This document shows positions 213 to 25,065 of a stretch of 64,000 nucleotides of DNA, piece after piece. The stretch comes from Candidatus Binatus sp. GTDB lineage: Bacteria > Desulfobacterota > Binatia > Binatales > Binataceae. Both the position numbers and the translations under genes were made by a program. The stretch is taken from positions 1,119 to 65,118 of the forward strand of contig NZ_JAUSKL010000027.1 of assembly GCF_030646925.1 (NCBI RefSeq), read 5' to 3'. Every line of letters begins with the position of its first letter. Positions within the stretch are counted from its first letter, which is position 1. The notes below the pieces were generated by a model, which worked only from the letters and a program-made list of their open reading frames with translations, was not told the DNA's origin and did no database searches.

Positions 213-1175
213 TCATTGCGCTGCGCCCCGAAGCTGCAGCGCTTGTCCGGTCGGCGCAGCGACGAGCGCGGCACAGGCCGGTGGCAGGTTGCCAAGCCGC
301 AGCGGTTTTCGGGGTGACGGTCGCGGGTGACGCGCCTCTTCGGTGAACCACCAATCGAGCTCCTTGCCGCAACCGTCGCCTGGCGGCGGCGGTGTTTGCC
401 CGCGACATTGACGGCTGCCGCTCGGGCAGGAAAGCCTGACATGGAAATGGTAATTGTGCCCCCACCACGGCCGAATCTTGGCCATCCAGGCCCGCTCCGG
501 CCCGCCCTCGCGGCACAGCGCGCGCTTGATCGCCGCGTTGACAAAAACGCGCTCCACCAAGGGCTCTCGGGCGACCGCCTCCAGCAGAAGACGATGCTGC
601 GGTGTGCAGACCGTCGGGTCGATATCCATCCCCTCCCCCGCGACAACGTCTGTTGCCGAGATGCCGTCCCGCTCGGCCGGGCTGAGCCGCCGATTTGGCA
701 TTGGCGTCAGCCAAATATCGACATCGAGCCCGATCTGGTGTGAGCCGTGGCCGGTCAGCATCGGTCCGCCGCGCGGCTGCGCGATATCACCGACCAGAAG
801 CCCGGGCCAGCCGGCCTCACCCGGCAGTTTCTGCGCCAACCGCTCGAGAAAGGCGATCAGGACCGGGTGGCCCCAGGCGCGGTTGCGTGACGGGCGCATG
901 ACCTGCCAGTTCGGCCCGTCGGCACGCAGTGCGATGGCGCCGCTTAGACAGCCGCGTTCATAGGACCCGATCGCCTGCGGCGGTCCGGCCGCCGGCGTAC
1001 TCTCACGTCCGAACAAAACTTGCGCCGCATCCGGCGGCAACTGTGCTATCGCCATAGCGCGGCGCGACGCCTCTTCCGCGCCAGTGTCCTGCGCCGAAGC
1101 CTCTCCGCGGCCGAGATGGGCCAAGAGCGTCAACACGCCACACAGGAAGATGCTTTTAATAACTGCGACTCTCAT
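213..1175 (-). CDS. mepA: penicillin-insensitive murein endopeptidase (MepA-like)
   Basis: Part of ORF 213..1340. An internal ATG at 1175 precedes a signal-peptide-like stretch, MRVAVIKSIFLCGVLTLLAHL. The motifs GHGSHQIGLDVDIW and WWGHNYHFHVRL are typical of MepA. Confidence 0.8.
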   Translation of the reverse strand: MRVAVIKSIFLCGVLTLLAHLGRGEASAQDTGAEEASRRAMAIAQLPPDAAQVLFGRESTPAAGPPQAIGSYERGCLSGAIALRADGPNWQVMRPSRNRAWGHPVLIAFLERLAQKLPGEAGWPGLLVGDIAQPRGGPMLTGHGSHQIGLDVDIWLTPMPNRRLSPAERDGISATDVVAGEGMDIDPTVCTPQHRLLLEAVAREPLVERVFVNAAIKRALCREGGPERAWMAKIRPWWGHNYHFHVRLSCPSGSRQCRGQTPPPPGDGCGKELDWWFTEEARHPRPSPRKPLRLGNLPPACAALVAAPTGQALQLRGAAQ

Positions 1176-1492
1176 ACGAGTTCGTCCAAAGTTCCGCCCA
1201 AGGCGGGCAAGATCGGATTCACTCGACGGCCGGTGATCGCCGTACTTCAGCAGAATCACCACGGCATTGCGGCTCTCGAGCCGCTCGCCGAGCGCGAGGC
1301 TCGTTTGCCATGGCACGGCATCGTCGCAGATGCCGTGCACCGGCCGCGCTGGAAGCGGAGCACGATAGGTTGATGCATCACGAGGTGGCGTTCGCCGTCT
1401 TCCAAAAGCCCGAGTCGGTAGGAATGCCCGTCGGGATCGTATTTTGGCGGCAACGTGATTTCACCGGTCGCCGCAATCCGGCTGAGGCTATT
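1176..1492 (-). pseudogene. 3' remnant of an alpha/beta-hydrolase gene (N-terminal half missing, one frameshift, no stop of its own)
   Basis: Two frames together read EITLPPKYDPDGHSYRLGLLEDGERHLVMHQPIVLRFQRG / VHGICDDAVPWQTSLALGERLESRNAVVILLKYGDHR, the HG..D..VP and GDH catalytic-His region of alpha/beta hydrolases. The frames switch near 1341-1344 in a C run. The frame only opens at 1492, after a TAG at 1495..1493, and runs without a stop into mepA. Confidence 0.55.
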
Positions 1493-1555
1493 CTATACTG
1501 GCCCCGAAGTTTTGCAGGATAGTACAAGCACCTAGCTCTTGCGGCTCCCAGCCAC

Positions 1556-4500
1556 CTACTTTCGGCGCACAGCGCGGCCCAGGTCGACCGCTCGCACAAA
1601 CCCGTCGTCGGTGTCCCTCTGAAAGCTCTTCCCCTTGGGTACCATCGCGCCCGCGGTCAGGTAGTCGCTTGGTCGGCATGTGAACACAACGATCTGAAAG
1701 TTGCGGGCCTTCTCGGCGAGCAGTGCGCGGAACCATTCCATCCGCGTACCGTCACTCTGTACCAGCTGATCGTCGAGCACGATAGTTGTAGATAGGTACT
1801 CTGCAAGGGCCAACCGGTACAATGTCGAGAGTTGCTCGCGAGTACCGACTGATATGCGGTCCGTTGGTCTAATCGCACCCGCGACCGCGACCCCTTCCGT
1901 CCCGAGTTCCGCGTTGATCTGGACGTTCTGGTAGCGACGCTGTGTCAAATCCTCGAAGCGGCTCGCGATGGCGGGTGCGAGCGTCTGGCCGAGGTTGCTC
2001 GCCTGCGCCACATCGGCCTCTTTCATCTGCTCAAGCAGCAACTGCCACGCATCATATTCCGCCTCGATTTCCCGCTCCTGGCGCTCCGCCGACTCGCACG
2101 CCTCGCTCGCGTCCCGCAGTCGCTCGCGCGCAACGGCGCCACCCACTTGCTCAAGCGCACCGTGCGTCCGATCGATCTCCCGCTGAATCGCTTCGAGACC
2201 CGACTCCGCCGACGTCTTGGCGCCCCGCGCAGCGTCGACTTCGGCCTCGGTCACGATTCGATCCGGGACCGGCATCGCGGCCCGTCTATCCGTTGCGCTT
2301 TTCAATCTGGACTCGGCGGCGGCGAGGTCCTGCGCGTCTCGCAGTTTTCGCAATTCTTCGAGGCGGCCGACTTGCAACGAGTGCGCAGTGATCGCGTTCG
2401 TTCGCTCCGTAGATGCGGCGTCGAGCTTGGTTTGTGCTCGTTCCGCGCTAGCGCGAGCTTCGCGGATTGCCGCTTCCACCCGAGCATTCTGTGCTGCGAT
2501 CGTGCTCTCATACGAGGCGAGTTCCGCCGCGACCTTCCGTTGCTCGCCCGCCGCGGCCGCTAGCGCAGCTTGAGCACCACCTAGCGTCGCAGCCACCCCT
2601 TCAGGAAAAGCGGTCAAAGCGGCATTCCGCGCGACGACCGCACCGTTCAGCGCTATCGCCGAATTCTTGGCGCGTTCTTCCGCCAGAGTGTGCGCGTTAC
2701 CGGCCTGAAGCGTAGTCGCGCGAGCCTGCTCAATCTCTTTCGACGCTCGCTGTCGGCGCTCTCGTAACGCTTGCGATGGCTCAGCGCCGAGCGCAGCCAG
2801 CTCGGGAAGGAGTGTTTCAAGGGCTACGTGTCCGAGCGCGGCGCGGCACGCCTTTTTGCGGTCGAGCGCCTCGCGCAGCTTTTGCGCCGTATCGATCAGC
2901 GAATCGATCTCCGCCTGCAGCGACTGCAACTCCGCGGCCTTCGCCTTGATGCTCGCCTCCAGCGTTTGCGACTCCGTGATCTTCGCGCTCAGGCCGTCGA
3001 GGTCCGCAACCTTGGCCGCCGCCAGATGTGGCTCGACCTCGCTTCTCCAACGACCTTCCAGCGCTTCGGCTGTCCGTTGTGCGTCGCGGCGCCCGCCCCG
3101 GATGCGCACAGTTGCGACATCGCCGATATCGAGGTCCACCTCGGCATCGGCTTCGACCTCCAACGTTGCACCAGATCGCGTCGGGTTCGCCGCCGTCCCA
3201 TCGTTTGTCACCCTGACCTCGATCGGGCGGTTCGGTGTGACCGTTACCACGAGACCGACATTGAGCGCGCCGCGGGCTCCGGCGAGATCGTTGGCGAGCT
3301 GGCGCATCGGACTCAGCGTATCGGCCGGCGGAACGACGATTGCCTCGCGTCGTTTCTGCAGCGCCTCGCGTTCGCTTGCTCCCGCTTCGAGGCGCGCTTG
3401 AAGGTTCGCGCGCCGGTCCACCTCGGCTTGCGCGGAGGTGACGCGATCGTCGGCATCGCGGGCCTCGAGCGCCCGTTGAAGTAGATCTATCCTGCCAACC
3501 TGCTCGTCGGCAGAATGTTCTTTAGCGGCCGCGTCGGCCAGCGCTACCTGCGCTTTTTCAGCTGCTGCCTGTTGAGCGCGATTCTCACGATCGGCGGCCG
3601 TCGCCGCATCGACGAGCTTCTGCGCGCTCGTCGCGCTATCGATCTTGCTTTGTGCCTCGTTCGACGCCTGGTCTGCCGCGACCTTTCTCAACTCCAGAGT
3701 CTGGCGAGCGACCGTGTCGGTCATGGCGGAATCAGATCCAGCAGCTTTCTTTGCGGATTCGAAGGCGGCATCCGCTTGTTCTTTCTGTAACTGCGCGACC
3801 TTCAGCGCCTGCTCTGCTGCCTCGAGCTTTCGACCGAGCTCTCCGACGCTTCGCTCCGCCGCATCCGCGTCGGCTATGATCTTCTGGATACGCAGCACCT
3901 CTTCGCGCGCTGCGCTTACCAGCCCGTCGGCTTCGTTAAGATCGGCGGCCTGCGCTGCGAGCTTTTCAGCAGTTGCAAGCTGCGCTGTCGCGACCGCCAC
4001 CGCCTCTTCGCGATCGCCGCGCTTCGACGTGAACTCGCGCAACTGCTTCTCGACACCTTCCGAATCCTCGACCAGTTTCTGGAGATCCTCCCTTTCCACC
4101 CTCGCCTGGTTCACGCGCGTCGCGGCGCGCTGGAATACGCTTCCCTTTGCGGTCTTCCTCGCGCCCCTATCGGTGAACGCCTCGTCGCGTCTTGCCTGCG
4201 TGGCTCGAAGCATCGCGGTGAAGAGAGGATCCTGTATCGCCGCCTGTAGCGCAGCCGCAATCAGTTCCCGTCCGGTGCCGCTCGGATCGCCTTGCAAGCT
4301 TTCGTTAAGGACGGCAGTCACCTCCGATTGCGTCGACAGCAGTGCGGTCGCAAGAAAGCTGGTCGGCAGCCCTCTGCCGCCTCCCGAGCCGCCCGGCTCC
4401 GGGATGCCCCATCGCAGGAGGTCACGGAGCCTGCCGTCCACTTTCCGCGCACGCTCGACATCGTCGAAATCCTTGCCGTTTTTCGACTCCTGCAACAACG

Positions 4501-4780
4501 CGGCGCCGCCTTTTCGGAATTCCTTCCTGACTCGCCAGATTCGCTGCTGCTCCGTCTCGAAAGTGAGTTCGACCACCGGATCGCGACCGCCGGTCCAGGG
4601 GACGTAGCCGTCGATGTGGGTCGAGGTGTGAGGAAGGAGCAACGCCAATCGGATTGCCTCTCCAAGCGTGGACTTGCCAAGATCGTTCGGGCCGTACAGC
4701 ACGTTGAGCCCCGGACCGAACTCGATATCCGCGTTCGTGATCGCCGCAAAGTCGGCAACATGCAGGCGAAGGAGCTTCAA
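1556..4780 (-). CDS. SMC-like coiled-coil ATPase (Rad50/SbcC/YhaN-type)
   Basis: Uninterrupted 1074-aa ORF. Walker A is GPNDLGKST near the N-terminus. More than 600 aa are A/E/R/Q-rich coiled-coil. The C-terminus carries a signature-like ISVGTREQLSTLYRLALA and a Walker B, TTIVLDDQL. The TTG start overlaps the upstream stop (TTGA). Confidence 0.85.
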   Translation of the reverse strand: MKLLRLHVADFAAITNADIEFGPGLNVLYGPNDLGKSTLGEAIRLALLLPHTSTHIDGYVPWTGGRDPVVELTFETEQQRIWRVRKEFRKGGAALLQESKNGKDFDDVERARKVDGRLRDLLRWGIPEPGGSGGGRGLPTSFLATALLSTQSEVTAVLNESLQGDPSGTGRELIAAALQAAIQDPLFTAMLRATQARRDEAFTDRGARKTAKGSVFQRAATRVNQARVEREDLQKLVEDSEGVEKQLREFTSKRGDREEAVAVATAQLATAEKLAAQAADLNEADGLVSAAREEVLRIQKIIADADAAERSVGELGRKLEAAEQALKVAQLQKEQADAAFESAKKAAGSDSAMTDTVARQTLELRKVAADQASNEAQSKIDSATSAQKLVDAATAADRENRAQQAAAEKAQVALADAAAKEHSADEQVGRIDLLQRALEARDADDRVTSAQAEVDRRANLQARLEAGASEREALQKRREAIVVPPADTLSPMRQLANDLAGARGALNVGLVVTVTPNRPIEVRVTNDGTAANPTRSGATLEVEADAEVDLDIGDVATVRIRGGRRDAQRTAEALEGRWRSEVEPHLAAAKVADLDGLSAKITESQTLEASIKAKAAELQSLQAEIDSLIDTAQKLREALDRKKACRAALGHVALETLLPELAALGAEPSQALRERRQRASKEIEQARATTLQAGNAHTLAEERAKNSAIALNGAVVARNAALTAFPEGVAATLGGAQAALAAAAGEQRKVAAELASYESTIAAQNARVEAAIREARASAERAQTKLDAASTERTNAITAHSLQVGRLEELRKLRDAQDLAAAESRLKSATDRRAAMPVPDRIVTEAEVDAARGAKTSAESGLEAIQREIDRTHGALEQVGGAVARERLRDASEACESAERQEREIEAEYDAWQLLLEQMKEADVAQASNLGQTLAPAIASRFEDLTQRRYQNVQINAELGTEGVAVAGAIRPTDRISVGTREQLSTLYRLALAEYLSTTIVLDDQLVQSDGTRMEWFRALLAEKARNFQIVVFTCRPSDYLTAGAMVPKGKSFQRDTDDGFVRAVDLGRAVRRK

Positions 4781-5940
4781 AGCGCGCGACCCGGAGGGCC
4801 CTCCTGGCTCTGCAGCAGCTTGTACAAGTGCGCGAGCGCGCGAGTTGCACGCGACCGCTCGGCCTCGTCAATCGAGTCTTCGATTAAGCGGTCGAGCCGC
4901 GCGATAGTGTCCCTTAGCACCGGCGGCAGATCGTCCGGGAAGATTCCTCCGGAACCGGCTTGCAACTTCAGGTTGGCTTTGTCCACCAAGAGGACGCCGG
5001 CGCGGCCATGGGTGGCGTCGGTGCCTTCAAGGTCACGCAAGATGCGCTCGACCTCGCTCTCCTCGGCAACGGACACCGTCATGTCCAGATGCAGCCTGAC
5101 CACGTGGCGCTCGAGGTCTGGCGTGGTCATAAATGTGCGCAACTCGTTGAGGTCGCGGCATCGCTGGTCGATCCAGCGCCAGAACGCCACCGGCTCGCGA
5201 GAAACGCGAGGCCGCGTCCCATGCCTGAAGAGCGCGACGAGTGCCACGTAGCCGGCATCGGGCTCGTCGAAGGTCGTGGGTTCGGGTGCACCGGGGTAAA
5301 TGGTCGGGACCGGCGAAGACGCGGTGACGTCGCGAAACGAATGCGTGTCGCCAATCGCGAGATAATCGAGCCCGCGATGCACGCCCGCATCCCGACAAAT
5401 CGGGAAGTTGGTCTGATAGCCGTCCATGTCGAACGTGCTGCCATGGACGCATCCGATTCGTATTCGTGCGTCACCCGGTTCGCGCGCGGGAAGCGACATC
5501 GCGAGGTCGTTCTCGCCTGCCTTGGACCGGCACGGTCTCGCATAGAGGATTGCGCCAGGCGCAAGGTCATAGAAAAACTCGTCATCATCGACGACGTGCA
5601 CCCACTTAGGAAGTTGCGATCGAAACGGGTGACTCTTCGCCCACACCGACTCGGAGGTAAGCGGATCGTGATTGCCCGGCACCAGGAAGACTGGGGGATG
5701 AGTGCCGCCTTGATTGCGAAACGTCACGGCCAGCCCCTCCCAGAAATCCTGGGCTGGAGTAGGGTCGTCGAACAGGTCGCCGGCGCATAGCACCGCGTCG
5801 ACCGCATTCCGCCGAGCGACATCCAGGATGGTCGCGATCACATCCATCCGCGCGCGCGACAGCTTCTGCTGCGCCTCCTCGGGGAAGGACGGAAACCGCC
5901 GCCCGAGATGCCAATCCGCAGTGTGCAGGATCTTCAGCAC
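4777..5940 (-). CDS. calcineurin-like metallophosphoesterase (Mre11/SbcD-type nuclease)
   Basis: Ordered motifs DWHLG, GDLFD, GNHD, GCVHG and GDTH. I place the start at GTG 5940..5938, which overlaps the helicase stop (TAGTG). The ORF-track ATG at 6039 would overlap the helicase by 100 nt. Confidence 0.85.
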   Translation of the reverse strand: MLKILHTADWHLGRRFPSFPEEAQQKLSRARMDVIATILDVARRNAVDAVLCAGDLFDDPTPAQDFWEGLAVTFRNQGGTHPPVFLVPGNHDPLTSESVWAKSHPFRSQLPKWVHVVDDDEFFYDLAPGAILYARPCRSKAGENDLAMSLPAREPGDARIRIGCVHGSTFDMDGYQTNFPICRDAGVHRGLDYLAIGDTHSFRDVTASSPVPTIYPGAPEPTTFDEPDAGYVALVALFRHGTRPRVSREPVAFWRWIDQRCRDLNELRTFMTTPDLERHVVRLHLDMTVSVAEESEVERILRDLEGTDATHGRAGVLLVDKANLKLQAGSGGIFPDDLPPVLRDTIARLDRLIEDSIDEAERSRATRALAHLYKLLQSQEGPPGRAL

Positions 5941-8924
5941 TACGCCTTCCGATTCATCGGCGCGATCCGGAACGCCACCTGGAACAGCCGGGTTGCGTTT
6001 GGGGCTCGGTACCGAAGCTCGTGATATTCGTTTCGCCATTTTCGATAGACCTCGTCCGCCCTGGAATCCAAAGCGTCGATCCGGCGTTCCAGCAGATCGG
6101 CCGTTATCGCCAGACGATTGATCTCCTCCTCGACTCGCTCGCGCGCGGTGGCGCCGACCACCGCATCACGCCGAGCCTTCGCGGAATCCAGCTTGTCGAG
6201 GATACTCGCCCGCTCGCGCCGGCTGACCAGGACCTTGTCGTCGACGAATCGTTCGAGCTGACCAATCGCCAGCTCGAAATGCTTTTGCTCACGCTTCTCA
6301 GTCTCGCGTTGATCGACAAAGATGGCCTCGTCGATCGCGTCGTCCAGCTCCTGCGGGTCAACAGTGACGCTGACTGTCTGACTATCGCTCGCCTTTAACC
6401 GCGCGATCCGGGCGGCCACCTCGGGATCGATCGGCATACCATCGACCACGCTACCGAAGATCAGGCGCTGTACCGGCTCGAAGCCGGCGTAATCGACCAT
6501 TGCGACGGCGAGGACGCCAATCTTTCCGGCCATCGCAGCGAGGTCCGGAGTAGCGTCGCGCGGGAGCATCAACTCGATCGATCCGCCCGGCCAGGCACGG
6601 GCATCTGCTATCGCCGCACGAACGAGCGGATGCGCGAGATTCAACGGCTCGGCGTCGATCAAGCCTCTGGCGTCGCCAGTCGCGAACCGACGACCCTCTC
6701 CGATCTCTGCAGGTAGTTCGGCGCTCGGCGCGATTTCGAACACTACCCGGCCCGACTTTTCGAAACGCTTATGAGCGATAGCGCCTGAAGCAAGGTAGCC
6801 TTCCACTAGGTCGGCGATATCACGGTCCAACTGCACGAGTCCCTCGGGAAGGTCCTCCCGCAAGCGTTTGAAAACCTTCCGCACGTCTTCATCGAACCGC
6901 GACTCGATAATCTGCGAGGTGCGTTGATATTCCTTTTCGTAAGCGTCCCTTCGGCCATCGATCTTGTCCCTCAATGCAGCAATCTCGCGCGTCACCTCGT
7001 CCAGCGTCCGCGACCGGCTATAAATGTTCCGGAGATCAGACTCGAACTCGAGAGAGAGAGCCGACACGACTATTTCGGGCGCGTCAGTGCGCGGTTCATG
7101 CAAAACCACATCGGAGGCATCGAGCACTCTTCCGAACAGGTCGAGTTTCTGACTCAGGATTTCAAAAGTCAGACGATGCGCTTCATTGTCCTTCGCTATG
7201 AAATTAACGACGGTCACGTCGCGTTGCTGGCTGTAGCGATGGCATCGCCCGATACGTTGCTCGATCCGCTGCGGGTTCCACGGCAAGTCGTAATTGATGA
7301 CCGTCTCGCAGAACTGAAGGTTGAGCCCCTTCGCACCAGCCTCCGTGCACACCAGCACCTTCGACCGCGTGCGGAACTCGTGAACGAGTGCCAGCCGCAC
7401 CGCGACTTCGCGTGTCGGTCGAGAACCCGGCGCAAGTTTGCTCCCCTCTTCCTCCAACCAGCGGGCGTGCGCTTGCTGCGCGCGTGCACCATCATTCGTG
7501 CCGCGGAATAGGGTGATTTCCTCGTCAGCCAGGCCAATACCGAGGAGTAGCTTCCGCAGGTACTCCTGGGTGGTGATGGACTCGGTGAACACCACCGCCT
7601 TGCCACTGCCGCGACCATCACGACCGAGATCGAGCACGACCCGGATAGCGTCCTGGAACGAGCGCGCTTTGGCATCGTGCGGAAGGGATTGTGCTCGAGC
7701 GACAAAGTCATCCACCAGAGCTAACTCGGCGGCGACCGCTTCATGATTGACCGGGACCGGCGCCTCCTCGGTGGATTCTTCCACCTCCTGATCCTCTTCC
7801 AGGTCGTCGAGCACCTCGGTCGCTTCGCCGATAACCGGTTGACCGGCGCCGAGGCGCCGGAGTCTCGCAGCTACGTTCTCGAGGCTCGCAGCAAGGGCTG
7901 GAATCGAGGACGCCATGCGGCGATGAAATCCAATCAGCAGCAAGCGCCGTTGTCGTCCGGCGAAAGCATACAATGTCGGCTGGAGGAGGTACTCGGTCAC
8001 GTCGTCGTAGAGCGAACGTTCGTCGTCGCTCATCGCGTACTCGTAAAGACGGCATCGGCGTTGCGTAAACGGCCGATCGAGAAACTCCTGCGCCTGGCGG
8101 CGCAACGTCCGCTGGAGCACCATCGCCAATCGCCGTTGCAGCTCGTGCTCCTGGCCGGGGATCAGCGTTCGGTCGTCCTCACTGCAGAACACCTGGCGAA
8201 ACGTCGTGATGTCCCCGAGCAAAGTGCCCGTCGGTTCCACGTACTGCACGAGGCCCCATAACTCAGCCAGCGAGTTCTGCATCGGAGTCGCGGTCAGCAG
8301 CAGCACCGGCGCCGTGCGCAGGAAGCCGCGCACCCGATGCGCCATCAGCGCCTCGATTGAGGTTTCGTCGTAGAGTCCGTCGCGTCCGTAGCGCTTGTGC
8401 AGGCCCGCAAAGATCTCGTGGGCCTCGTCGATAATCACCAGATCAAACGGTAAGACGGCGCCAAGCAGCCCGGCACCACGTTCACTCCCTGCGAACTCGC
8501 GCCCGACCAGGTAAACTCCGGGTCCGGAAAAGTCGGCCCGGTCCTCGCGAGCTTGAATGCCGAATAGATTGAGGAGTTCGTCCTGCCACTGCCCGATCAG
8601 TGACTTGGGAACAATTAGTAAGACGCGCTTTGCACCTTCGGCTAGGCTTTGCGCGAGCACCAGCCCCGCCTCGATCGTCTTTCCCAGTCCTACCTCGTCA
8701 GCAAGGATGCAACCGCCCTCGCGCAGGCGCCGAAGCGCGAAAATCACTGCGTCGATCTGATGCGGATTCGGGTCGATTCGCGCCTGCCGCTGCGACGACG
8801 CGTAGCGTTCCCGGTCATCCGGGCGGCGGACACGGACGAGATCCTCGGCCAGAATGCGCCGATTGAAAGCATGGAGGGTCCCGCTATTTCGTCCCGCCGG
8901 CACGGTCTTATTCCGCGAACGCAT
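5940..8924 (-). CDS. SNF2-family helicase/translocase with a long C-terminal extension
   Basis: Uninterrupted 994-aa ORF. Motifs seen: ILADEVGLGKT (motif I), VIIDEAHE (DEAH), LLLTATPMQNSLAELW, VLVCTEAGAKGLNLQ and NYDLPWNPQRIEQRIGRCHRYSQ. About 400 aa lie C-terminal of the helicase core and are partly coiled-coil. Confidence 0.9.
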   Translation of the reverse strand: MRSRNKTVPAGRNSGTLHAFNRRILAEDLVRVRRPDDRERYASSQRQARIDPNPHQIDAVIFALRRLREGGCILADEVGLGKTIEAGLVLAQSLAEGAKRVLLIVPKSLIGQWQDELLNLFGIQAREDRADFSGPGVYLVGREFAGSERGAGLLGAVLPFDLVIIDEAHEIFAGLHKRYGRDGLYDETSIEALMAHRVRGFLRTAPVLLLTATPMQNSLAELWGLVQYVEPTGTLLGDITTFRQVFCSEDDRTLIPGQEHELQRRLAMVLQRTLRRQAQEFLDRPFTQRRCRLYEYAMSDDERSLYDDVTEYLLQPTLYAFAGRQRRLLLIGFHRRMASSIPALAASLENVAARLRRLGAGQPVIGEATEVLDDLEEDQEVEESTEEAPVPVNHEAVAAELALVDDFVARAQSLPHDAKARSFQDAIRVVLDLGRDGRGSGKAVVFTESITTQEYLRKLLLGIGLADEEITLFRGTNDGARAQQAHARWLEEEGSKLAPGSRPTREVAVRLALVHEFRTRSKVLVCTEAGAKGLNLQFCETVINYDLPWNPQRIEQRIGRCHRYSQQRDVTVVNFIAKDNEAHRLTFEILSQKLDLFGRVLDASDVVLHEPRTDAPEIVVSALSLEFESDLRNIYSRSRTLDEVTREIAALRDKIDGRRDAYEKEYQRTSQIIESRFDEDVRKVFKRLREDLPEGLVQLDRDIADLVEGYLASGAIAHKRFEKSGRVVFEIAPSAELPAEIGEGRRFATGDARGLIDAEPLNLAHPLVRAAIADARAWPGGSIELMLPRDATPDLAAMAGKIGVLAVAMVDYAGFEPVQRLIFGSVVDGMPIDPEVAARIARLKASDSQTVSVTVDPQELDDAIDEAIFVDQRETEKREQKHFELAIGQLERFVDDKVLVSRRERASILDKLDSAKARRDAVVGATARERVEEEINRLAITADLLERRIDALDSRADEVYRKWRNEYHELRYRAPNATRLFQVAFRIAPMNRKA

Positions 8925-8930
8925 ACGCTG

Positions 8931-9641
8931 CTAGATCACGGGGGCAGCTATGCTCCGCCAGCCGTTGGAATAGTCGATCCTTGAATTCCATAATCGCTGA
9001 AACGTCTGCGCCGCAGAGCGCACCAATTCGGGGAGATCACGAACCTTGCGCAGATTCGGCGCGTTGATCGAATCATCGGTAAGCACGGCGCGGACCCCTC
9101 TCCAGCTTTCATTTATTCGCGATCGCGCGCCGTGTTCACGCTCGTGTTCTGTCGATCTTGCGTCGCAGTTTGTTCTCGACGTGCTGCGAATATTTAGCCA
9201 ATTCCTCCCCTGTGAGGCAAGCAATAGGCTATCATATGGAGCATCATAACAGATAAAAAGGGGCGGCGACCTCAATAAGTCGCAATCTATGAATTGGCTA
9301 ATAGGTCCCGCACCCCTCCTCTTCTTGGGCGCACCGCGGTTTGTTTGGATTGCTGCCATCGTATTGTTGATGGGAACCGCGGAAGATGCGATTCGGCTGT
9401 AACTCGTAGTATCGCGAGAGTATCGTCTGCATGAAGCTTTGATAAAGCGTTTTAATGACTTGCACGATGAGGGCATGATCTGGTCAACAAGCAGGGCACC
9501 CGACTTCGACGCCATGAGATTGCCTCTGTCGGGTCTAAGCGCGATGTTCGACCCTGATGTTCGTGGATCGTGCCAGGGGCGAATAATGGTTGCGCCAAAC
9601 TGTAACAGTGCCAAAGTTTCGTCCGCATTTTTGATCAACAC
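8931..9641 (-). CDS. hypothetical ORF upstream of the helicase (possibly only the last 51 codons are real)
   Basis: 236-aa ORF in a low-GC spacer, with its stop 7 nt before the helicase ATG. The 3' part, from GTG 9086 preceded by GGAGAGGGG, reads MLTDDSINAPNLRKVRDLPELVRSAAQTFQRLWNSRIDYSNGWRSIAAPVI and looks protein-like. The 5' part is R/S-rich and contains a promoter-like TTGCCT-18nt-TAAATA (9220..9191). I recognise no family. Confidence 0.25.
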   Translation of the reverse strand: MLIKNADETLALLQFGATIIRPWHDPRTSGSNIALRPDRGNLMASKSGALLVDQIMPSSCKSLKRFIKASCRRYSRDTTSYSRIASSAVPINNTMAAIQTNRGAPKKRRGAGPISQFIDCDLLRSPPLFICYDAPYDSLLLASQGRNWLNIRSTSRTNCDARSTEHEREHGARSRINESWRGVRAVLTDDSINAPNLRKVRDLPELVRSAAQTFQRLWNSRIDYSNGWRSIAAPVI

Positions 9642-9875
9642 GAAGTCGGGTCGTCACCCCCGCGGCCCCTTTGTGACCAAAGAGCCCATCATGTTCGCGC
9701 GCGGCAGCGATAATTTATTCGCGGAAATTGGGTTGCCATTTGTCGTTTCATGGCGTTTCGTGATGTGTTGAGCAGCCGACAAACAAAAGACCGGGCATGC
9801 AAAGGGCCGCAACACCAAGTCGTTATAGAGAGATAAACGTCGCCGTCGAGGCGAAAGAGGAAAGCGGCGCCTAGT

Positions 9876-12554
9876 ATGCTCGAATTAACTTTACGGGATG
9901 AGTTCAAGGGGGAACGCCTCAAAGGGACAACTATCGACTTCTCAGCCGATAAGCCGACAAGCGCCCTCCAAAGGTCGACGGCCGAGTTCCTGAGCATCAC
10001 CTATCCGTCCGTTGACCTCCTGCGCGTGTTCGAGGCGACGCAGCCGGACAAATCGCACCCCGTTGTGCTGTTGGGCGCGCGCGGTCAGGGCAAATCGCAC
10101 TTGATGGCTGCGCTCTGGCACGCAATCAAAGACCCGGCTGAGGCGACCAAGTGGCTGGCGAATTGGGCCGCGAAGTTGAACCGTCCGGAATTGAAGACCC
10201 TCAAGTTCCGCACCGATTTTTGCGTCATTGCTGAAAGCCTCCACCAGCAACGATTTAAGTTCTTGTGGGAGATCCTGTTTGACCGGCATCCGCAAGGCCA
10301 ACTCGTCAAAGGAAAATGGCTTGGCAAAGGCGATGCCAGGACCAACGTGCCCAGCATCGACCTGCTCCTTGAGATGTTTAAGGCGCAGCCAACCGTACTA
10401 CTGCTCGACGAGTTCCAGACGTGGTTTGATGGATTGAGCGATAGTCCAAAGGCGAAAACCCAAACTTGGGCGTTTAACTTCATCCAACTGCTCTCCGAAA
10501 TCGCGAATGACCATCCCGAACTGCTCGTATTCGTCGCCTCCATCCGCGACAATCAGTCGCAGGCATATCAGCAAATTCACCGCATCAATCCGGTGCTCGT
10601 CGATTTTCAAGGCACTCACGCCAAGCAAGATCGTCAGCGCCTTCTACTTTACCGGATTTTCGAGAATCGGCTGAACGTCCCTGGCGGGCAAATCAAGGCT
10701 CTCATCGAGCCGCATCTCTGGGAATACGTTCGTCTCGCGGAAATTCCTCCGTCGCAGCACGAAGCGAAGCGAAGCGAATTCGCGGAGGCGTGGCCCTACT
10801 CGCCCGTGCTGATGCGCTTGCTTGAAGACCAAGTGCTCGTCGCCACCGAAGCGCAAGAAACTCGCGATCTCATCCGCATCCTGGTTGACTTGTTCAAAAC
10901 CCGTGGCGAAAAGTCACCGGTCATCACCGCAGCAGACTTTGACATCAGCAGCGACAAAGGTAGCGTGACTTCGCTTTTGAGTTCTGTGGCCAATCAACTC
11001 CACAGGACACTGCTTGAAAAAGCGCGGCGCAACCTTGAGGCGGTCCGCATTGCGGTCCAAGACCCTGACAAGAATATTCCACACTCCTCGGACATTATCA
11101 GTGCGCTTTGGCTCCGTTCCTTAAGCGTTGATAGAATCAACGGCGCCGCACCTGCCGAATTGCAGTCCGACATCACTCGCAATGAGGCCATCGACGACAA
11201 CACGTTCGCTGCCGAGATGGCGCTCATCCGCGAGAACAGCTTCAACATCCACCCGGTTGGCAACCGTCTCGTGTTCAGGGAAGAGGAGAATGCCGAAGGC
11301 AAGCTGCTGGCTCACGCGAAGAATGACAAGCTGTTCGAGAGCAATCAGGACATCGAGCAGCTCGCGGCGGAAGTCCGCTACGTGATCGGCGGCAGCGAGG
11401 AAGTCTCCCGCAAGTTCCGCGTGGTGGTGCTCAGAAAGAATTGGCAAAGTGACCCGTGGACGGAACTCCCGGAGAACGAGCGACCTGATCGATGGGATGG
11501 TCGTCTGACTCTCATCGCACTGCCGGAGAATCTTGACAATGTCGAGGCGATCCTCGGCGCGTGGCTAAAGCGACATCTTCCCCAACGCCGCAACACGCTC
11601 CGGTTCCTCCTGCCGAAGAAAGCGTCCGCAAACATCTATTTCGACCGCGACCTGATTGTGTATGCGCGAGGCATCTATCTGGCGAACCAATGGAAGGACA
11701 CTGACTCAGCGTTTCGCCCGCTGTACACGACCTACCAGAATTCTCATCTTCGCCCACGGCTCAAAGACTTGTTCGACACTTTTGCTATCCTCGATGTCTG
11801 GAACTTCGTGCAGCCAGAGCAGTGCCGTTTCCTTATAGAGAAGCACAACGCCATCGGCGACAAGATTCCAAAGGCCATAGACGAGAAGATTGTGAACGAA
11901 CTGTTCATCGCGGAAGACTTCGAAGCCGCGGCGCTGGCGCACGCCACCGCCAGTTCGTCGCTCGCTAAGTTCATGGGTGATCTTCAAGAGCCAAGCATCG
12001 ACGGCAAGCACTGCATTCCTTGGCTCGGTGAAGTGGCGACGAAAGAAAAGGTTCTCCATCTTTGCGCCGATGGAAAGCTCTCGATCAACTTGCGTGGTCT
12101 GGAACTCCTTCAAGCACAGCCCGGCGAACCGGAAGACGCTGCGTGGATACGCATCAAGGGCAAGCTCGGTTCGGGCAAGGAGCTTGAGCAAACCATCCTA
12201 CAAGTACCCGGTGCTTATCCCCAGAGTGGAGGTACGATGCCGTTTCAATTGACTCCGACAACTCAACAGCCACCGACAACGGCATCGGTGCCCGGAGTTG
12301 TTCCGCCGTCCAAAATATTCGGCGACGATTCGTTGGCTTCTACTACGCCGATACTCAAACCGTTCGGTACTCCACCAAAGACTCCGATGAACCTGCTTGG
12401 CGAAGTTGAGAAATGGGGTATCAGTCCAGCGACCAGCGTGACCAACGTGAACATTAACGTCTCTCAAATGACCGGCGCGCAACTGACCGATTTGCTCAAG
12501 AAGCTCCCGGATGGCGGAATGTTTTCGCTGACCCTGGAGAAGCAAACGCAATGA
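9876..12554 (+). CDS. DUF499/BrxC(PglY)-like P-loop ATPase
   Basis: 892-aa ORF. The N-terminus, FLSITYPSVDLLRVFEAT...VVLLGARGQGKSHLMAALWHA, matches the DUF499 pattern (TYPT..L..., Walker A, ..LAL.H). Walker B is TVLLLDEFQTW. GC is lower than in the flanks. The stop overlaps the next ATG (ATGA). Confidence 0.75.
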   Translation: MLELTLRDEFKGERLKGTTIDFSADKPTSALQRSTAEFLSITYPSVDLLRVFEATQPDKSHPVVLLGARGQGKSHLMAALWHAIKDPAEATKWLANWAAKLNRPELKTLKFRTDFCVIAESLHQQRFKFLWEILFDRHPQGQLVKGKWLGKGDARTNVPSIDLLLEMFKAQPTVLLLDEFQTWFDGLSDSPKAKTQTWAFNFIQLLSEIANDHPELLVFVASIRDNQSQAYQQIHRINPVLVDFQGTHAKQDRQRLLLYRIFENRLNVPGGQIKALIEPHLWEYVRLAEIPPSQHEAKRSEFAEAWPYSPVLMRLLEDQVLVATEAQETRDLIRILVDLFKTRGEKSPVITAADFDISSDKGSVTSLLSSVANQLHRTLLEKARRNLEAVRIAVQDPDKNIPHSSDIISALWLRSLSVDRINGAAPAELQSDITRNEAIDDNTFAAEMALIRENSFNIHPVGNRLVFREEENAEGKLLAHAKNDKLFESNQDIEQLAAEVRYVIGGSEEVSRKFRVVVLRKNWQSDPWTELPENERPDRWDGRLTLIALPENLDNVEAILGAWLKRHLPQRRNTLRFLLPKKASANIYFDRDLIVYARGIYLANQWKDTDSAFRPLYTTYQNSHLRPRLKDLFDTFAILDVWNFVQPEQCRFLIEKHNAIGDKIPKAIDEKIVNELFIAEDFEAAALAHATASSSLAKFMGDLQEPSIDGKHCIPWLGEVATKEKVLHLCADGKLSINLRGLELLQAQPGEPEDAAWIRIKGKLGSGKELEQTILQVPGAYPQSGGTMPFQLTPTTQQPPTTASVPGVVPPSKIFGDDSLASTTPILKPFGTPPKTPMNLLGEVEKWGISPATSVTNVNINVSQMTGAQLTDLLKKLPDGGMFSLTLEKQTQ

Positions 12555-13129
12555 CGGCTGACCGCGATCCGACGCTCGATTCCATTCTTACCGCCACATC
12601 CAAGGAGGCCTGGCAGGTGATATTTGACAGGCTTTGGGAAATCTTCTCGGCCCCCCTTACCTCGCAGCATGCCGAACAGGAAGTCGCCGACCGCGAGAGT
12701 AAGGTCAGCGAAATTGAACTGCTGCTTTCCAGTTCCGCATGGGAACTCTGGCGCGAATTTGAAAGCTCCGTGCCGCGCACCGCGCAATCCGTCATCGACT
12801 TCTGGAACAGCGCCACCAGCGGCAAGGCCGTTTTGATCCTTGACGGGTTGTCGCTGCGTGAGTCGCCGTGGCTGCTGCAAGAAGCCGAGCGACGCGGCTA
12901 CCACATTCAGCAGGCCGGCGCGCGCGGCTCGGAAATTCCGAGCGAGACCAGACCCTTCGCCAGGGCGCTGGGGTTCGGACAACGGTCGTCGATCGAAAAT
13001 AACGGCGCGGGGATGGCGCACCTTCTTCCGGGCGCACGCACGGAAAGTTTGAATGTCGCGTGGGACTACTGCCACGACTGGATCGCATCCGCGCCAGCCA
13101 TCGTGCTTTGGCATCATTGGCCCGCAGGT
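12551..13129 (+). pseudogene. PglZ-like (alkaline-phosphatase superfamily) gene, 3'-truncated
   Basis: GKAVLILDGLSLRESPWLL and SEIPSETRPFARALGFG resemble the PglZ metal-ligand Asp and the PS.T nucleophile region. After about 190 aa the frame continues as the antisense of coxG and is meaningless. Full PglZ proteins are several hundred aa longer. Confidence 0.55.
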
Positions 13130-13501
13130 CAAGCGCTGACCAACCTGCATCAGCGGGCCGCCGATTTGTACATCGCCGGCGTATTTCACAATCGTGGTGC
13201 GAGGATCTTTTGCCTCGAGGTCGAGCGTTCCCGAGCCGCGAATGAAACCCTGCTTGCCCTTGCCGTCCAGGAGCATCTTGTAGTGCTCGGGGGGGCGTTT
13301 TTCTTCGAGCTTGAGATTCCCCGCGTAGGTTCCCTTGACGGCCGCGATTCCGACGTTGATGGCGCCGGCGAATTGATCGGGGCCAAGGATCTCGAGCTTT
13401 TCGCATCCGGGGATAAGCCGCGACAGCCGCTCGGGATCGTTGAGAAGTTCCCACACCCGTTGGCGCGGGGCGGGAAGAGTGGTTTCACCAGCCAGCTTCA
13501 T
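13130..13501 (-). pseudogene. coxG: CoxG-like (SRPBCC) carbon monoxide dehydrogenase subunit G, 3'-truncated
   Basis: MKLAGETTLPAPRQRVWELLNDPERLSRLIPGCEKLEILGPDQFAG...KYAGDVQIGGPLMQVGQRL is a typical CoxG core. Similarity ends after about 124 aa. The ORF then runs 220 codons through the antisense of the PglZ-like gene. Confidence 0.7.
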
Positions 13502-13545
13502 CGCAGATTCATGTAGTCCCGGTGCGAGCGATCAATCGCGACGAG

Positions 13546-14413: not shown

Positions 14414-14417
14414 CGGG

Positions 14418-16760: not shown

Positions 16761-16781
16761 CGCTCTCTCCTTGGAAATCGT

Positions 16782-17257
16782 TCAAGCGCGCTCGCTGGAA
16801 CGCATCTTTTCAGCGGCGTACTGGATCGCCTTGATGATGTGCTGGTAGCCGGTGCATCGACACAGGTTGCCCTCGAGCGCCTCGCGGATTTGCGCCTCAG
16901 TCGGGTTCGGGTTTCGGCTCAAGAGATCCGTCGCCGTCATGATCATGCCGGGTGTGAATAGCCGCATTGAAGGCCGTGCTCCTCCCAGAAGCCTTCCTGA
17001 ATAGGATTCATCTTGCCGTTTTTGGCGAGGCCCTCGACAGTCGTGATTTGGCTGCCTTCAGCCTGCACGGCGAGTGTGGTGCACGACTTGACCGCTTGCC
17101 CATTGATCAGCACCGTGCATGCGCCGCACAGCGAGGTCTCGCATCCGACATGGGTGCCGGTCAGTTGCGCGACATCGCGGAGGTAGTGCACGAGCAGCAT
17201 GCGCGGGTCGATGTCGTCATCGTGGCGCTCGCCGTTGATCGTGACAGTTAGCTGCAT
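16782..17257 (-). pseudogene. coxS: CoxS-like [2Fe-2S] small subunit, frameshifted
   Basis: ORF 16943..17257 ends ...EEHGLQCGY|SHPA and ORF 16782..16967 continues (R)[14 protein letters not shown]...CRCTGYQHI. The expected sequence GLQCGYCTPGMIM is restored by adding one G near 16957. Confidence 0.85.
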
Positions 17258-20835: not shown

Positions 20836-20891
20836 TAGTTTACCCCATTCCGGCGCCATTGACGGGGCCCGTCGCGAGACGATCGATAGAG

Positions 20892-21705: not shown

Positions 21706-21714
21706 ATCGTGGAC

Positions 21715-24994: not shown

Positions 24995-25065
24995 GGCTAA
25001 CTTTCCCTCACATGATCGTTTCGATAGCGTCTCAAGCTCGCGGCGGAAGTGGAATCGAGACTGAA

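What the first reader, a model, noticed from the sequence alone, without database searches (positions are those of the whole stretch)
1556..13129. Defence-island-like block of DNA-transaction enzymes bounded by truncated host genes
Between about 1.5 and 13.13 kb all recognisable genes are nucleic-acid enzymes: an SNF2 helicase, an Mre11/SbcD-type phosphoesterase, a Rad50/SbcC-like ATPase, a DUF499/BrxC-like ATPase and a PglZ-like fragment. Both edges are scars. On the left, an alpha/beta-hydrolase gene has lost its N-terminal half (its frame opens only at 1492). On the right, coxG loses its C-terminus at about 13130 exactly where the PglZ-like gene loses its 3' part, and each ORF runs on through the antisense of the other. 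Composition is heterogeneous. My hand counts of 60-nt lines give about 43 % GC at 9241, 47 % at 10201 and 55 % at 12601, against 63-65 % at 3001 and 14401. The BrxC/PglZ half therefore looks foreign, while the helicase operon looks host-like. I found no integrase, transposase, tRNA or convincing direct repeats at the edges. I do not recognise this gene combination as a named defence system.
Basis: partly seen in the sequence, partly recalled or inferred. Interest (0 to 1): 0.8.

Follow-up and report, generated by a model that had tools for sequence, protein, structure and literature searches.

The report
Mobile SNF2–SbcCD-like cassette beside BREX-related remnant
The block is two unrelated pieces of foreign DNA joined between broken host genes: an intact, horizontally mobile three-gene helicase–nuclease–ATPase cassette that is not a named system but often sits among anti-phage genes, and the dead stump of a recently described BREX-related restriction-like system.

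Summary
All five genes, both edge scars and the compositional split are real.

- **Left edge.** A C-terminal stump of an alpha/beta-hydrolase gene (1188-1480, itself frameshifted) lies next to an intact mepA.
- **Right edge.** coxG (124 of about 176 aa) and a standalone PglZ-like gene (193 of 332 aa) are fused tail to tail at 13125-13133.

The block is not one system.

- **Module A (1555-9044).** This is an intact, translationally coupled operon of a DrmD-like SNF2 helicase, an Mre11/SbcD-like nuclease and a Rad50/SbcC-like ATPase without a zinc hook. The same triad, in the same order, occurs in 21 or more loci from five or more phyla, with neighbours that differ from locus to locus. Those neighbours include R-M, Gabija, GmrSD, Mokosh-like and conjugation genes. 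Three times the neighbour is a DUF499-centred system. PADLOC, NCBIfam and the searchable literature do not name the triad. I read it as a candidate methylation-independent defence cassette derived from SbcCD. That function is inferred, not shown.
- **Module B (9735-13129).** This is the decayed stump of a Type-3 BREX-Related (Hma-like) system. The regulator gene is frameshifted, the DUF499 ATPase is intact and PglZ is cut. The methyltransferase, iSTAND and helicase genes are gone.

The adjoining cox operon is also pseudogenised.

The parts
213..1175 (-). mepA (penicillin-insensitive murein endopeptidase), an intact host gene on the left flank
   Evidence: Peptidase_M74 at 1.7e-96 with full profile coverage. 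NCBIfam equivalog PRK09429 scores 340 bits against a cutoff of 272. The ATG at 1175 is followed by a signal-peptide-like N-terminus.
1188..1480 (-). C-terminal remnant (about 97 aa) of an alpha/beta-hydrolase gene. It is frameshifted near 1355, and its N-terminal part (about 195 aa) is missing. This is the left scar.
   Evidence: tblastn gives 57-67% identity to residues ~195-299 of full-length hydrolases upstream of mepA in L107, L113, L121 and L156. Those proteins carry Abhydrolase/Hydrolase_4 domains.
1555..9044 (-). Mobile three-gene cassette (module A): the limits of DNA homology to the closest relatives
   Evidence: blastn is 86-89% identical to L005, L006 and L007 over window 1555/1561-9044 and nowhere beyond.
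1556..4780 (-). Rad50/SbcC-like coiled-coil ABC ATPase (1074 aa). It has no CxxC zinc hook. Walker B reads LDDQ, and the H-loop position is TCR.
   Evidence: AAA_23, SMC_N and NCBIfam Rad50 match the N-terminus at 1e-11. Rad50 PDB hits reach 4e-9. The best PADLOC hit is LmuB, at only 7e-13. Motifs are conserved in 12 homologues and none has CxxC.
4777..5940 (-). Mre11/SbcD-like metallophosphoesterase nuclease (387 aa). Its start overlaps the SNF2 stop and its stop overlaps the ATPase start.
   Evidence: Metallophos 3e-13; TIGR00619 sbcd 5e-18 (65.8 bits, below the cutoff of 77.65); SbcD/Mre11 PDB 3e-11. DxH, GDLFD, GNHD, H166 and GDTH are invariant in 21 sequences. No PADLOC hit.
5940..8924 (-). 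DrmD-like/RapA-like SNF2 helicase (994 aa) with complete ATPase motifs and an uncharacterised C-terminal region of about 300 aa
   Evidence: SNF2-rel_dom 1e-24 and Helicase_C 7.5e-17. PADLOC DrmD PDLC02619 at 6e-130. NCBIfam DISARM_DrmD_b scores 433.6 bits (cutoff 950). RapA PDB 1.5e-24. The C-terminus has no Pfam hit.
9045..9734 (.). Unassigned spacer, 52.8% GC, with no credible gene
   Evidence: The 236-aa ORF 8931-9641(-) has no hit in Pfam, NCBIfam or PADLOC. There is no plasmid DNA match.
9735..9875 (+). Degraded 3' end of the small regulator gene that precedes the DUF499 gene in intact relatives (ribbon-helix-helix in L174)
   Evidence: DNA homology to L176 begins at the end of that contig. 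Translation needs two or more frameshifts to follow the L176 protein. The L174 counterpart hits RHH_1 at 3.7e-4.
9876..12554 (+). DUF499 AAA+ ATPase of a Type-3 BREX-Related system (892 aa), full length
   Evidence: PF04465 scores 25.3 bits (cutoff 23). It is 49-51% identical end to end to the plasmid DUF499 proteins and 91.5% identical in DNA to L176.
12551..13129 (+). Standalone PglZ-like gene truncated after WHHWP (193 of 332 aa). It lacks the SDHGY and THGG motifs.
   Evidence: Alignment with five plasmid homologues. Full-length 332-aa relatives are up to 90% identical, and many carry precomputed PF08665. 9 of 32 hit PF08665 in my scan, best E 0.0016. The weak PorX match has E 1.8.
13125..13133 (.). 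Junction between the BR remnant and coxG. It has no filler and no evident microhomology.
   Evidence: Base-by-base comparison with L176 and L177.
13130..13501 (-). coxG truncated at residue 124 of about 176. This is the right scar.
   Evidence: COXG profile positions 1-119 of 140 are covered. 120 homologues are 173-178 aa long. The relative continues GQRMIDSASKMM... where the window reads into the PglZ antisense.
13532..17257 (-). coxM, coxL and coxS pseudogenes (4 frameshifts), adjoining decayed host DNA
   Evidence: Each gene is split over 2-3 frames, against intact proteins of 287, 779 and 158 aa in L177-L179.

Best explanation
The region is a rearrangement hotspot upstream of mepA. It now holds two independently acquired modules.

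**Module A (1555-9044)** is an intact, horizontally mobile operon. It encodes a DrmD-like SNF2 dsDNA translocase, an Mre11/SbcD-like nuclease with a complete metal site, and a Rad50/SbcC-like coiled-coil ABC ATPase without a zinc hook.

Proposed working (inferred):
- The ATPase and nuclease form an SbcCD-like complex that recognises DNA ends or other unusual structures on incoming or replicating foreign DNA and cuts them.
- The SNF2 motor loads on that DNA, clears bound proteins or feeds it to the nuclease.
- No methyltransferase is present, so discrimination would rest on DNA structure or ends rather than on modification. This is the logic shown for Lamassu, which itself descends from SbcCD.

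**Module B (9735-13129)** is the non-functional remnant of a Type-3 BREX-Related (DUF499-centred, Hma-like) system. A deletion removed the 3' part of its PglZ gene, its DUF1156 methyltransferase, its iSTAND and its SNF2 helicase. The same deletion took the 3' end of coxG and whatever lay beyond it.

**Shown:** the gene identities, the cassette limits, the mobility, the truncations and the decay.

**Inferred:** complex formation, the defence role and the mechanism of the triad.
For: **Cassette limits and integrity.**
- Homology to L005-L007 spans 1555-9044.
- All three proteins are full length against their relatives.
- Start and stop codons overlap.

**Mobility.**
- The triad order is identical in 21 fetched loci, plus the no-DNA contig carrying P0054. 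These come from Verrucomicrobiota, Acidobacteriota, Proteobacteria, Rokubacteria and Myxococcota.
- Copies at 75-94% protein identity sit in quite different neighbourhoods.
- The family is small: 155 clusters at 50% identity reach E<=1e-30 among 1.84 billion representatives.

**Defence context.**
- L005 has type II R-M, GmrSD and RelA/SpoT-like genes.
- The P0054 contig has a type-1 BR system and Gabija.
- L009 has a BR methyltransferase, an iSTAND-like gene and SNF2.
- L011 has a Mokosh/Hhe-like helicase and a RecD-like protein.
- L014 has a Ppl-like ATPase.
- L017 has a GajB/DRT-type UvrD helicase.
- Elsewhere there are AbiEi, PDC candidates and TrwC/TrwB.
- The SNF2 falls with defence SNF2s (DrmD 6e-130).

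**Catalytic motifs** are conserved in all three proteins.

**Precedent.** Lamassu senses DNA ends and evolved from SbcCD (PMC12663957).

**Module B.**
- The five-gene architecture is seen on plasmids and in L174 and matches Type-3 BR as published.
- The breakpoints are defined.
- The regulator is degraded.
- No methyltransferase, iSTAND or matching helicase occurs anywhere in the window.

**Hotspot.** Close relatives carry five different arrangements upstream of mepA, one of them with an integrase and an IS66 transposase.
Against: - No experiment or published description supports a defence role for the triad.
- Several triad loci sit among ordinary metabolic genes (L088, L090). One locus has Ku/LigD nearby, which would fit a repair role.
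- PADLOC has no model for the nuclease and only a weak LmuB-type hit for the ATPase.
- The ATPase lacks the zinc hook, and most members have Arg in place of the H-loop His. SbcCD-like mechanics are therefore not guaranteed.
- My AlphaFold models were of low confidence (pLDDT 57 and 65). Foldseek gave no significant match for the PglZ-like protein.
- The neighbourhood evidence is qualitative. I did not compute an enrichment against a genomic background.
- The junction at 13.13 kb could not be checked against reads.
Confidence: 0.6

Rival explanations
1. The triad is an accessory DNA-repair or genome-maintenance module. On this view it is an SbcCD paralogue with a dedicated SNF2 remodeller that processes blocked ends, hairpins or stalled forks, and it has no immune role. 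Its place near defence genes would reflect only that both ride on mobile DNA.
For: The only sequence-detectable relatives of the nuclease and ATPase are SbcD/Mre11 and Rad50. Some loci have purely metabolic neighbours. Ku/LigD lie near one copy. The composition is host-like.
Against: - The distribution across phyla is sporadic, with 75% or more identity between Verrucomicrobiota and Acidobacteriota copies.
- Flanks vary even among copies that are 89-94% identical.
- The triad recurs next to R-M, Gabija, BR and Mokosh-like genes.
- The SNF2 is closest to DrmD-type defence helicases.
- No curated SbcC, SbcD or Rad50 cutoff is reached.
Confidence: 0.22
2. The triad and the DUF499 system are parts of one composite system. 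The triad would serve as an auxiliary or back-up nuclease module recruited by BREX-Related systems, so the window once held a single larger machine.
For: Triad and BR are adjacent in three independent contexts with different BR subtypes: the window, the P0054 contig and L009. The BR paper reports that many auxiliary nuclease modules are recruited to BREX and BR loci.
Against: - At least 18 of 21 triad loci have no BR component within 7-10 kb.
- The relative orientation differs in each of the three cases.
- Intact Type-3 BR operons on plasmids and in L174 lack the triad.
- The homology breakpoints show that the two modules have separate histories.
Confidence: 0.1
3. The apparent scars are artefacts. 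On this view the tail-to-tail join at 13.13 kb is a metagenomic misassembly, and the frameshifts are sequencing errors.
For: The source is evidently a metagenome-type contig of 83.6 kb. I found no relative that links the left 13 kb to the right 51 kb. There are many frameshifts in the cox genes.
Against: - Frameshifts are confined to genes that are already disabled: cox, the RHH regulator and the hydrolase stump.
- 10 kb of triad and DUF499 coding sequence has none.
- The coxM shift is not in a homopolymer.
- There is no repeat at the junction that would mislead an assembler.
- The left junction recurs in an independent contig, L091, at 95% identity.
Confidence: 0.06
4. The block is an ancestral housekeeping locus shared by relatives.
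For: One 2.3-kb contig from a 95%-identical relative shares the mepA-to-ATPase junction.
Against: Relatives at 74-93% mepA identity carry other genes at this site. Relatives of the cox operon have pmbA/tldD and rplQ/rpoA after an intact coxG. No species-representative genome holds a triad more than 77% identical.
Confidence: 0.02

Closest known systems
Type-3 BREX-Related (BR) system of Rakesh & Krishnan 2026 (PMC12839542); related to PADLOC 'Hma'
   Same: Module B has the DUF499 AAA+ ATPase immediately followed by a short standalone PglZ-like gene. Its closest relatives (L174, L176 and five plasmids) continue with a DUF1156 N6-methyltransferase, an iSTAND-sized protein of about 170 aa and an SNF2 helicase with no nuclease fusion. 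This is exactly the published architecture.
   Different: Only the ATPase is intact here. PglZ is cut at 58% of its length, and the regulator is frameshifted. The methyltransferase, iSTAND and helicase are absent. It is a relic, not a working system. The PADLOC HmaC model barely detects this ATPase (E 0.001).
SbcCD / Mre11-Rad50 DNA-end processing complex
   Same: Module A pairs a calcineurin-type nuclease carrying the Mre11 metal motifs with a long coiled-coil ABC ATPase encoded directly downstream. The nuclease stop overlaps the ATPase start by 4 nt.
   Different: - There is no CxxC zinc hook.
- Walker B reads DD and the H-loop position is Arg.
- Similarity to SbcC and SbcD is confined to about 90-100 N-terminal residues and lies below the curated cutoffs.
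- An SNF2 helicase is always encoded upstream.
- The cassette is mobile and patchily distributed rather than a conserved housekeeping pair.
Lamassu (LmuA/LmuB/LmuC; DdmABC)
   Same: Lamassu is an SMC/Rad50-family sensor found in defence islands. It was recently shown to sense DNA ends and to descend from SbcCD (PMC12663957). The best PADLOC hit of the window's ATPase is LmuB.
   Different: The LmuB hit is weak (46.6 bits). There is no LmuA effector or LmuC. The triad keeps a full, apparently active SbcD-like nuclease and adds an SNF2 motor. Its ATPase is about 1075 aa, against about 600 aa for typical LmuB.
DISARM (DrmD SNF2 helicase)
   Same: The SNF2 protein is closest to DrmD models (PADLOC 6e-130; NCBIfam DrmD_b 433 bits). 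Its 32%-identical plasmid relatives sit in HTH-SNF2-methyltransferase-helicase operons.
   Different: The score is below the DrmD_b cutoff of 950. There is no DrmA, DrmB, DrmC or methyltransferase in the cassette.
Canonical BREX (types 1-6)
   Same: Module B shares the BrxC-like ATPase family (DUF499) and a PglZ-family phosphatase/nuclease.
   Different: There is no BrxA, BrxB, BrxL or PglX. The PglZ is a 332-aa single domain rather than a multidomain protein of about 700-900 aa.

Membership tests
Type-3 BREX-Related system | DUF499-clade AAA+ ATPase | tested here: met
   PF04465 scores 25.3 bits (cutoff 23). The protein is 49-51% identical over its full length to the DUF499 proteins of five-gene BR operons, and 91.5% identical in DNA to L176.
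Type-3 BREX-Related system | Standalone active PglZ encoded in the core locus | tested here: inconclusive
   The gene is present but truncated at 193 of 332 aa and lacks the DHG and HGG motifs. The PglZ assignment of the family rests on weak evidence: 9 of 32 homologues hit PF08665 (best E 0.0016), there are precomputed PF08665 hits, the PorX match has E 1.8, and the published description supports it. Foldseek on a model with pLDDT 65 gave no significant match.
Type-3 BREX-Related system | DUF1156-type N6-adenine methyltransferase | tested here: not met
   tblastn with the plasmid methyltransferases finds nothing in the 64-kb window.
Type-3 BREX-Related system | BrxHII-like Swi2/Snf2 helicase of the same lineage, and iSTAND | tested here: not met
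   The only SNF2 in the block is 28-30% identical to BR helicases over the core only, whereas the ATPase is 50% identical to its BR counterparts. There is no match to the protein of about 170 aa.
Hma (PADLOC) | HmaA helicase + HmaB methylase + HmaC ATPase | tested here: not met
   HmaC scores E 0.001 only. HmaB is absent. The HmaA model hits the triad SNF2 at 2e-38, far behind DrmD.
SbcCD / Mre11-Rad50 | Nuclease with the Mre11 phosphoesterase motifs | tested here: met
   DxH, GD, GNHD, H and GDxH are invariant in 21 sequences. Metallophos scores 3e-13.
SbcCD / Mre11-Rad50 | Rad50/SbcC zinc hook (CxxC) at the coiled-coil apex | tested here: not met
   None of 12 family members has a CxxC.
SbcCD / Mre11-Rad50 | Reaches curated SbcC/SbcD/Rad50 family thresholds | tested here: not met
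   sbcd scores 65.8 bits against 77.65. SbcD equivalog scores 52 bits against 450. Rad50 scores 43 bits against 700.
Lamassu | LmuB SMC protein together with an LmuA effector (and LmuC) | tested here: not met
   LmuB PDLC03859 scores only 46.6 bits. No LmuA or LmuC hit appears among the block's proteins.
DISARM | DrmD at family threshold plus DrmA/DrmB (DUF1998), DrmC and a methyltransferase | tested here: not met
   DrmD_b scores 433.6 bits against a cutoff of 950. The other components are absent from the block.
BREX types 1-6 | BrxA/BrxB, PglX methyltransferase and multidomain PglZ | tested here: not met
   No such hits in Pfam, PADLOC or NCBIfam for any ORF of the block.
Anti-phage defence system (functional class), for the triad | Protection against phage or plasmid when expressed | not testable with these tools
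   Only genomic context is available.

The most novel reading that the evidence does not exclude
The SNF2 - SbcD-like - SbcC-like triad is a self-sufficient, methylation-independent anti-phage or anti-plasmid system. In it, a DrmD-type translocase licenses or feeds an active SbcCD-derived nuclease machine.

It would be a living example of the step 'SbcCD repair complex turned immune module' that has been proposed as the origin of Lamassu. It may also act as a back-up effector beside BREX-Related systems.
Probability: 0.35. Interest if true: 0.75.

Novelty: new variant of a known kind. Interest (0 to 1): 0.55.

Why it matters
If the triad is an immune system, it would add a fully nuclease-competent, SNF2-assisted descendant of SbcCD to the growing list of SMC/Rad50-family defences (Wadjet, Lamassu).

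It would make a recent evolutionary proposal, that Lamassu arose from SbcCD, directly testable with a natural intermediate.

It would also offer a compact 7.5-kb cassette with clear borders for cloning.

The BR remnant shows how such systems decay in situ. The methyltransferase and effector were lost together, while the ATPase ORF survives.

The locus also illustrates a rearrangement hotspot in an uncultured soil lineage, probably Binataceae.

Tried and rejected
- **Exact-protein look-ups.** Look-ups for the window's DUF499 and SNF2 proteins found nothing on record.
- **Plasmid search for the ATPase.** tblastn found no relative of the Rad50-like ATPase on plasmids.
- **Structure tests.**
  - The AlphaFold2 model of a full-length PglZ-like homologue had pLDDT 65. 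Foldseek against the PDB gave no hit at E<=0.001.
  - The model of the Mre11-like protein had pLDDT 57, because the alignment was too shallow. I did not search with it.
- **Direct Pfam scans.** Scans of three PglZ-like homologues did not report PF08665. Only scanning 32 members showed the weak, recurrent hits.
- **Literature.**
  - Five searches for the triad combination found no description. A sixth, for 'SbcCD-like' plus 'defense system', returned one preprint on phage transposon mutagenesis, which I did not open.
  - The ABC-ATPase classification paper (PMC7544218), the most likely place for a prior mention, is not held.
- **Window SNF2 as an inverted BR helicase.** Rejected: 28-30% identity, against 50% for the ATPase.
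- **Simple insertion between the hydrolase gene and coxG.** Rejected. Relatives with the intact hydrolase have no cox genes within 10 kb. cox relatives are followed by pmbA/tldD.
- **Edge features.** No flanking direct repeats, no tRNA, and promoter and terminator scans at chance level.
- **Spacer 9045-9734.** No plasmid match.

Full report
**1. What is in the sequence**

The block contains, on the minus strand:
- a 1074-aa Rad50/SbcC-like ABC ATPase (1556-4780);
- a 387-aa Mre11/SbcD-like metallophosphoesterase (4777-5940);
- a 994-aa SNF2 helicase (5940-8924).

On the plus strand it contains:
- an 892-aa DUF499 ATPase (9876-12554);
- an ORF (12551-13516) whose first 193 residues are a real gene.

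The 236-aa ORF at 8931-9641 has no hit in any library.

**2. Left edge**

The gene at the far left is an intact murein endopeptidase MepA. Peptidase_M74 scores 1.7e-96 and the NCBIfam equivalog is above its cutoff. Its ATG is at 1175.

In metagenome contigs whose mepA DNA is 74-80% identical (L107, L113, L121, L156), a full alpha/beta hydrolase of about 300 aa sits immediately upstream of mepA. The window keeps only its last 97 or so residues, at 1480-1358 and 1349-1188, in two frames. That frame opens just after a stop at 1493-1495.

An independent 2.3-kb contig (L091, 95.4% identical) spans mepA, the stump and the 3' end of the ATPase gene. This junction therefore exists in a second sample.

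Other relatives carry different things at this position:
- L104 has a phage-type integrase and an IS66 transposase.
- L098 has ABC permeases.
- L094 has an isochorismatase fragment and a different hydrolase.

The site is a rearrangement hotspot.

**3. Module A, the triad**

*Limits and integrity.* DNA identity of 86-89% to three metagenome contigs (L005, L006, L007) runs from 1555/1561 to 9044 and stops there. That is from the stop codon of the last gene to about 120 bp upstream of the first. The genes are translationally coupled through overlapping stop and start codons. All three are full length against their relatives.

*Distribution.* The same three genes, in the same order, occur in every related locus I fetched. 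That is 21 loci, plus the P0054 contig, for which only the gene calls were available. The loci are labelled Chthoniobacterales, Bryobacteraceae, Acidiferrales, Terriglobales, Vicinamibacterales, Azotimanducaceae, Rokuibacteriota, Myxococcales and others. No species-representative genome has a copy of the nuclease more than 77% identical. Copies in Verrucomicrobiota and Acidobacteriota are still 75-77% identical to the window's. The nuclease family is small: 155 clusters at 50% identity reach E<=1e-30 among 1.84 billion representatives.

*Neighbours differ even between near-identical copies.*
- L005 has a type II methylase, a BsuBI/PstI endonuclease, GmrSD and a RelA/SpoT-like gene.
- L006 has prophage-like genes and a 1700-aa helicase with an MTES_1575 nuclease domain.
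- The contig carrying P0054 has a type-1 DUF499-DUF1156-SNF2/NOV_C system on one side and Gabija on the other.
- L088 and L090 have ordinary genes.

A scan of 109 flanking ORFs from 16 loci found R-M enzymes, AbiEi, Mokosh/Hhe-like helicases, GmrSD, PADLOC candidate families, TrwC/TrwB and Ku/LigD, besides metabolic genes.

In L009, the triad is followed by a convergent BR-type methyltransferase, a small iSTAND-sized gene and an SNF2 helicase.

*The proteins.*
- **SNF2.** It has all the helicase motifs. It is closest to DrmD models (PADLOC 6e-130; NCBIfam DrmD_b 433.6 bits against a cutoff of 950) and to RapA among solved structures. Its 32%-identical plasmid relatives lie in HTH-SNF2-methyltransferase-helicase operons.
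- **Nuclease.** It keeps the Mre11 metal motifs invariantly. It matches SbcD and Mre11 only over its first 95 or so residues.
- **ATPase.** It has Walker A GPNDLGKST, signature SVGTREQ and Walker B VLDDQ. Most members have Arg at the H-loop position. None of 12 members has a CxxC hook.

PADLOC has no model for the nuclease and only a weak LmuB hit for the ATPase. Searches of the held literature found no description of this combination. One further search returned a single preprint that I did not open.

**4. Module B, the DUF499 half**

On plasmids of Burkholderia, Klebsiella, Ensifer, Aminobacter and Ca. Tenderia, the homologues of the DUF499 ATPase (49-51% identical) and of the downstream gene (42-47%) head a conserved operon. 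Its order is:
- a small HTH or RHH regulator;
- the DUF499 ATPase;
- a protein of about 330 aa;
- a DUF1156 methyltransferase;
- a protein of about 170 aa;
- an SNF2 helicase.

A closer relative (L174; 81% DNA identity) has the same operon next to ArdC, ParB and UmuDC genes. L176 is 91.5% identical over window 9735-13124.

This architecture is the 'Type-3 BREX-Related system' of Rakesh and Krishnan, defined by a standalone PglZ and an iSTAND added to the DUF499-methyltransferase-helicase core.

My own tests of the PglZ assignment are weak but consistent:
- 9 of 32 full-length homologues hit PF08665 (best E 0.0016), and 2 hit the related Phosphodiest family.
- Many homologues carry precomputed PF08665 hits.
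- A profile search of the PDB puts PorX at E 1.8, aligned on the DHG and HGG motifs.
- The structure route failed.

In the window, the regulator gene needs two or more frameshifts. The ATPase is intact. PglZ ends after WHHWP, before both C-terminal catalytic motifs. No methyltransferase, iSTAND or matching helicase exists anywhere in the 64 kb.

The window's SNF2 is not the missing helicase. It is 28-30% identical to the BR helicases, whereas the ATPase is 50% identical to its BR counterparts.

**5. Right edge**

BR homology ends at 13124 and cox homology begins at 13134. There is no filler and no clear microhomology.

CoxG relatives are 173-178 aa long.

In relatives (L177-L179), coxS-coxL-coxM-coxG are intact and are followed by pmbA/tldD and rplQ/rpoA. 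None of those downstream genes is in the window. In the window, coxS, coxL and coxM carry four frameshifts.

Frameshifts are confined to genes that are already disabled. About 10 kb of triad and DUF499 coding sequence has none. This argues for real decay rather than random sequencing error, but I could not check reads.

**6. Composition**

- GC is 62.7% for the triad, 52.8% for the 9045-9734 spacer and 56.6% for the BR remnant, against 61.6% for the window.
- The 9-13 kb windows show the largest tetranucleotide deviation in the 64 kb.

The 43-47% figures are very local.

**7. How it most likely works**

*Module B is dead.* It has no methyltransferase, no complete PglZ and no helicase.

*Module A looks functional.* I propose an SbcCD-like nuclease machine that recognises DNA ends or unusual structures on foreign DNA. 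An SNF2 translocase would assist by loading, clearing or feeding the substrate. Self is distinguished from non-self by DNA structure rather than methylation, because no methyltransferase is ever associated within the cassette.

The precedent is Lamassu, which senses DNA ends and replication origins and was recently argued to descend from SbcCD. The steps shown here are gene identity, motif conservation, operon structure, mobility and context. Complex formation, substrate and immune function are inferred.

*Rivals.*
- **Mobile repair module.** This is the main rival.
- **Functional partnership with BR systems.** The three adjacencies suggest it. The separate homology breakpoints, the varying orientation and the 18 or more triad loci without BR components argue against it.
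- **Assembly artefact at the right junction.** This cannot be excluded without reads.

**8. Comparison and novelty**

Module B is a relic of an already described kind. Module A fails the membership tests for SbcCD (no hook, below cutoffs), Lamassu (no LmuA or LmuC), DISARM (below cutoff, partners absent) and BREX/BR.

It is a new combination of known parts, which I class as a new variant of SbcCD/Rad50-type machines in a defence context. Such context-based candidates are common, and nothing here is experimental, so the overall interest is moderate (0.55). It would rise if defence activity were shown.

Noticed in passing
window 13130-17257 (-): The whole coxSLMG operon is a pseudogene array. 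coxS has 1 frameshift, coxL has 2 and coxM has 1, and coxG is truncated. Relatives L177-L179 have intact genes encoding 158, 779, 287 and 176 aa.
   Followed up: yes
window 19551-25102 (-): Copper-monooxygenase genes (PmoB-like 19551-20549, PmoA-like 20892-21788) and copB/copA lie in a second compositionally deviant stretch (18-26 kb). Pfam coverage of PmoA and PmoB starts only at profile positions 43 and 59, so these genes may also be damaged. CoxG relatives are named Candidatus Binataceae, so the host may be a Binatota-type soil bacterium.
   Followed up: partly
window 1555-13129; contig of P0054; L009:13151-19796: The triad lies next to a DUF499-centred BREX-Related system in three independent contexts. 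The BR subtypes and relative orientations differ. In L009 the BR helicase is itself frameshifted.
   Followed up: partly
L104:5301-9035; L098:6536-9803; L094:661-1948: The site upstream of mepA varies among close relatives. L104 has a phage integrase and an IS66 transposase. L098 has ABC permeases. L094 has an isochorismatase fragment and a different hydrolase. This looks like an insertion and rearrangement hotspot.
   Followed up: partly
window 9045-9734: This is a 690-bp stretch at 52.8% GC between the two modules. It has no ORF with any family hit and no plasmid DNA match, and its origin is unknown.
   Followed up: partly
P0376: A 1338-aa protein is 56% identical to the Mre11-like nuclease over its first 271 residues. 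It may be a nuclease-ATPase fusion in this family.
   Followed up: no
L002:17792-20669: In Klebsiella plasmids, the Type-3 BR operon has a SIR2 gene and an ATP-binding protein gene inserted between PglZ and the methyltransferase. This is an embedded second system.
   Followed up: no
A5 members, residues ~165-217: 11 of 32 standalone-PglZ homologues give weak Barstar (PF01337) hits, with a best E-value of 3e-4. This is unexplained and is probably noise.
   Followed up: no
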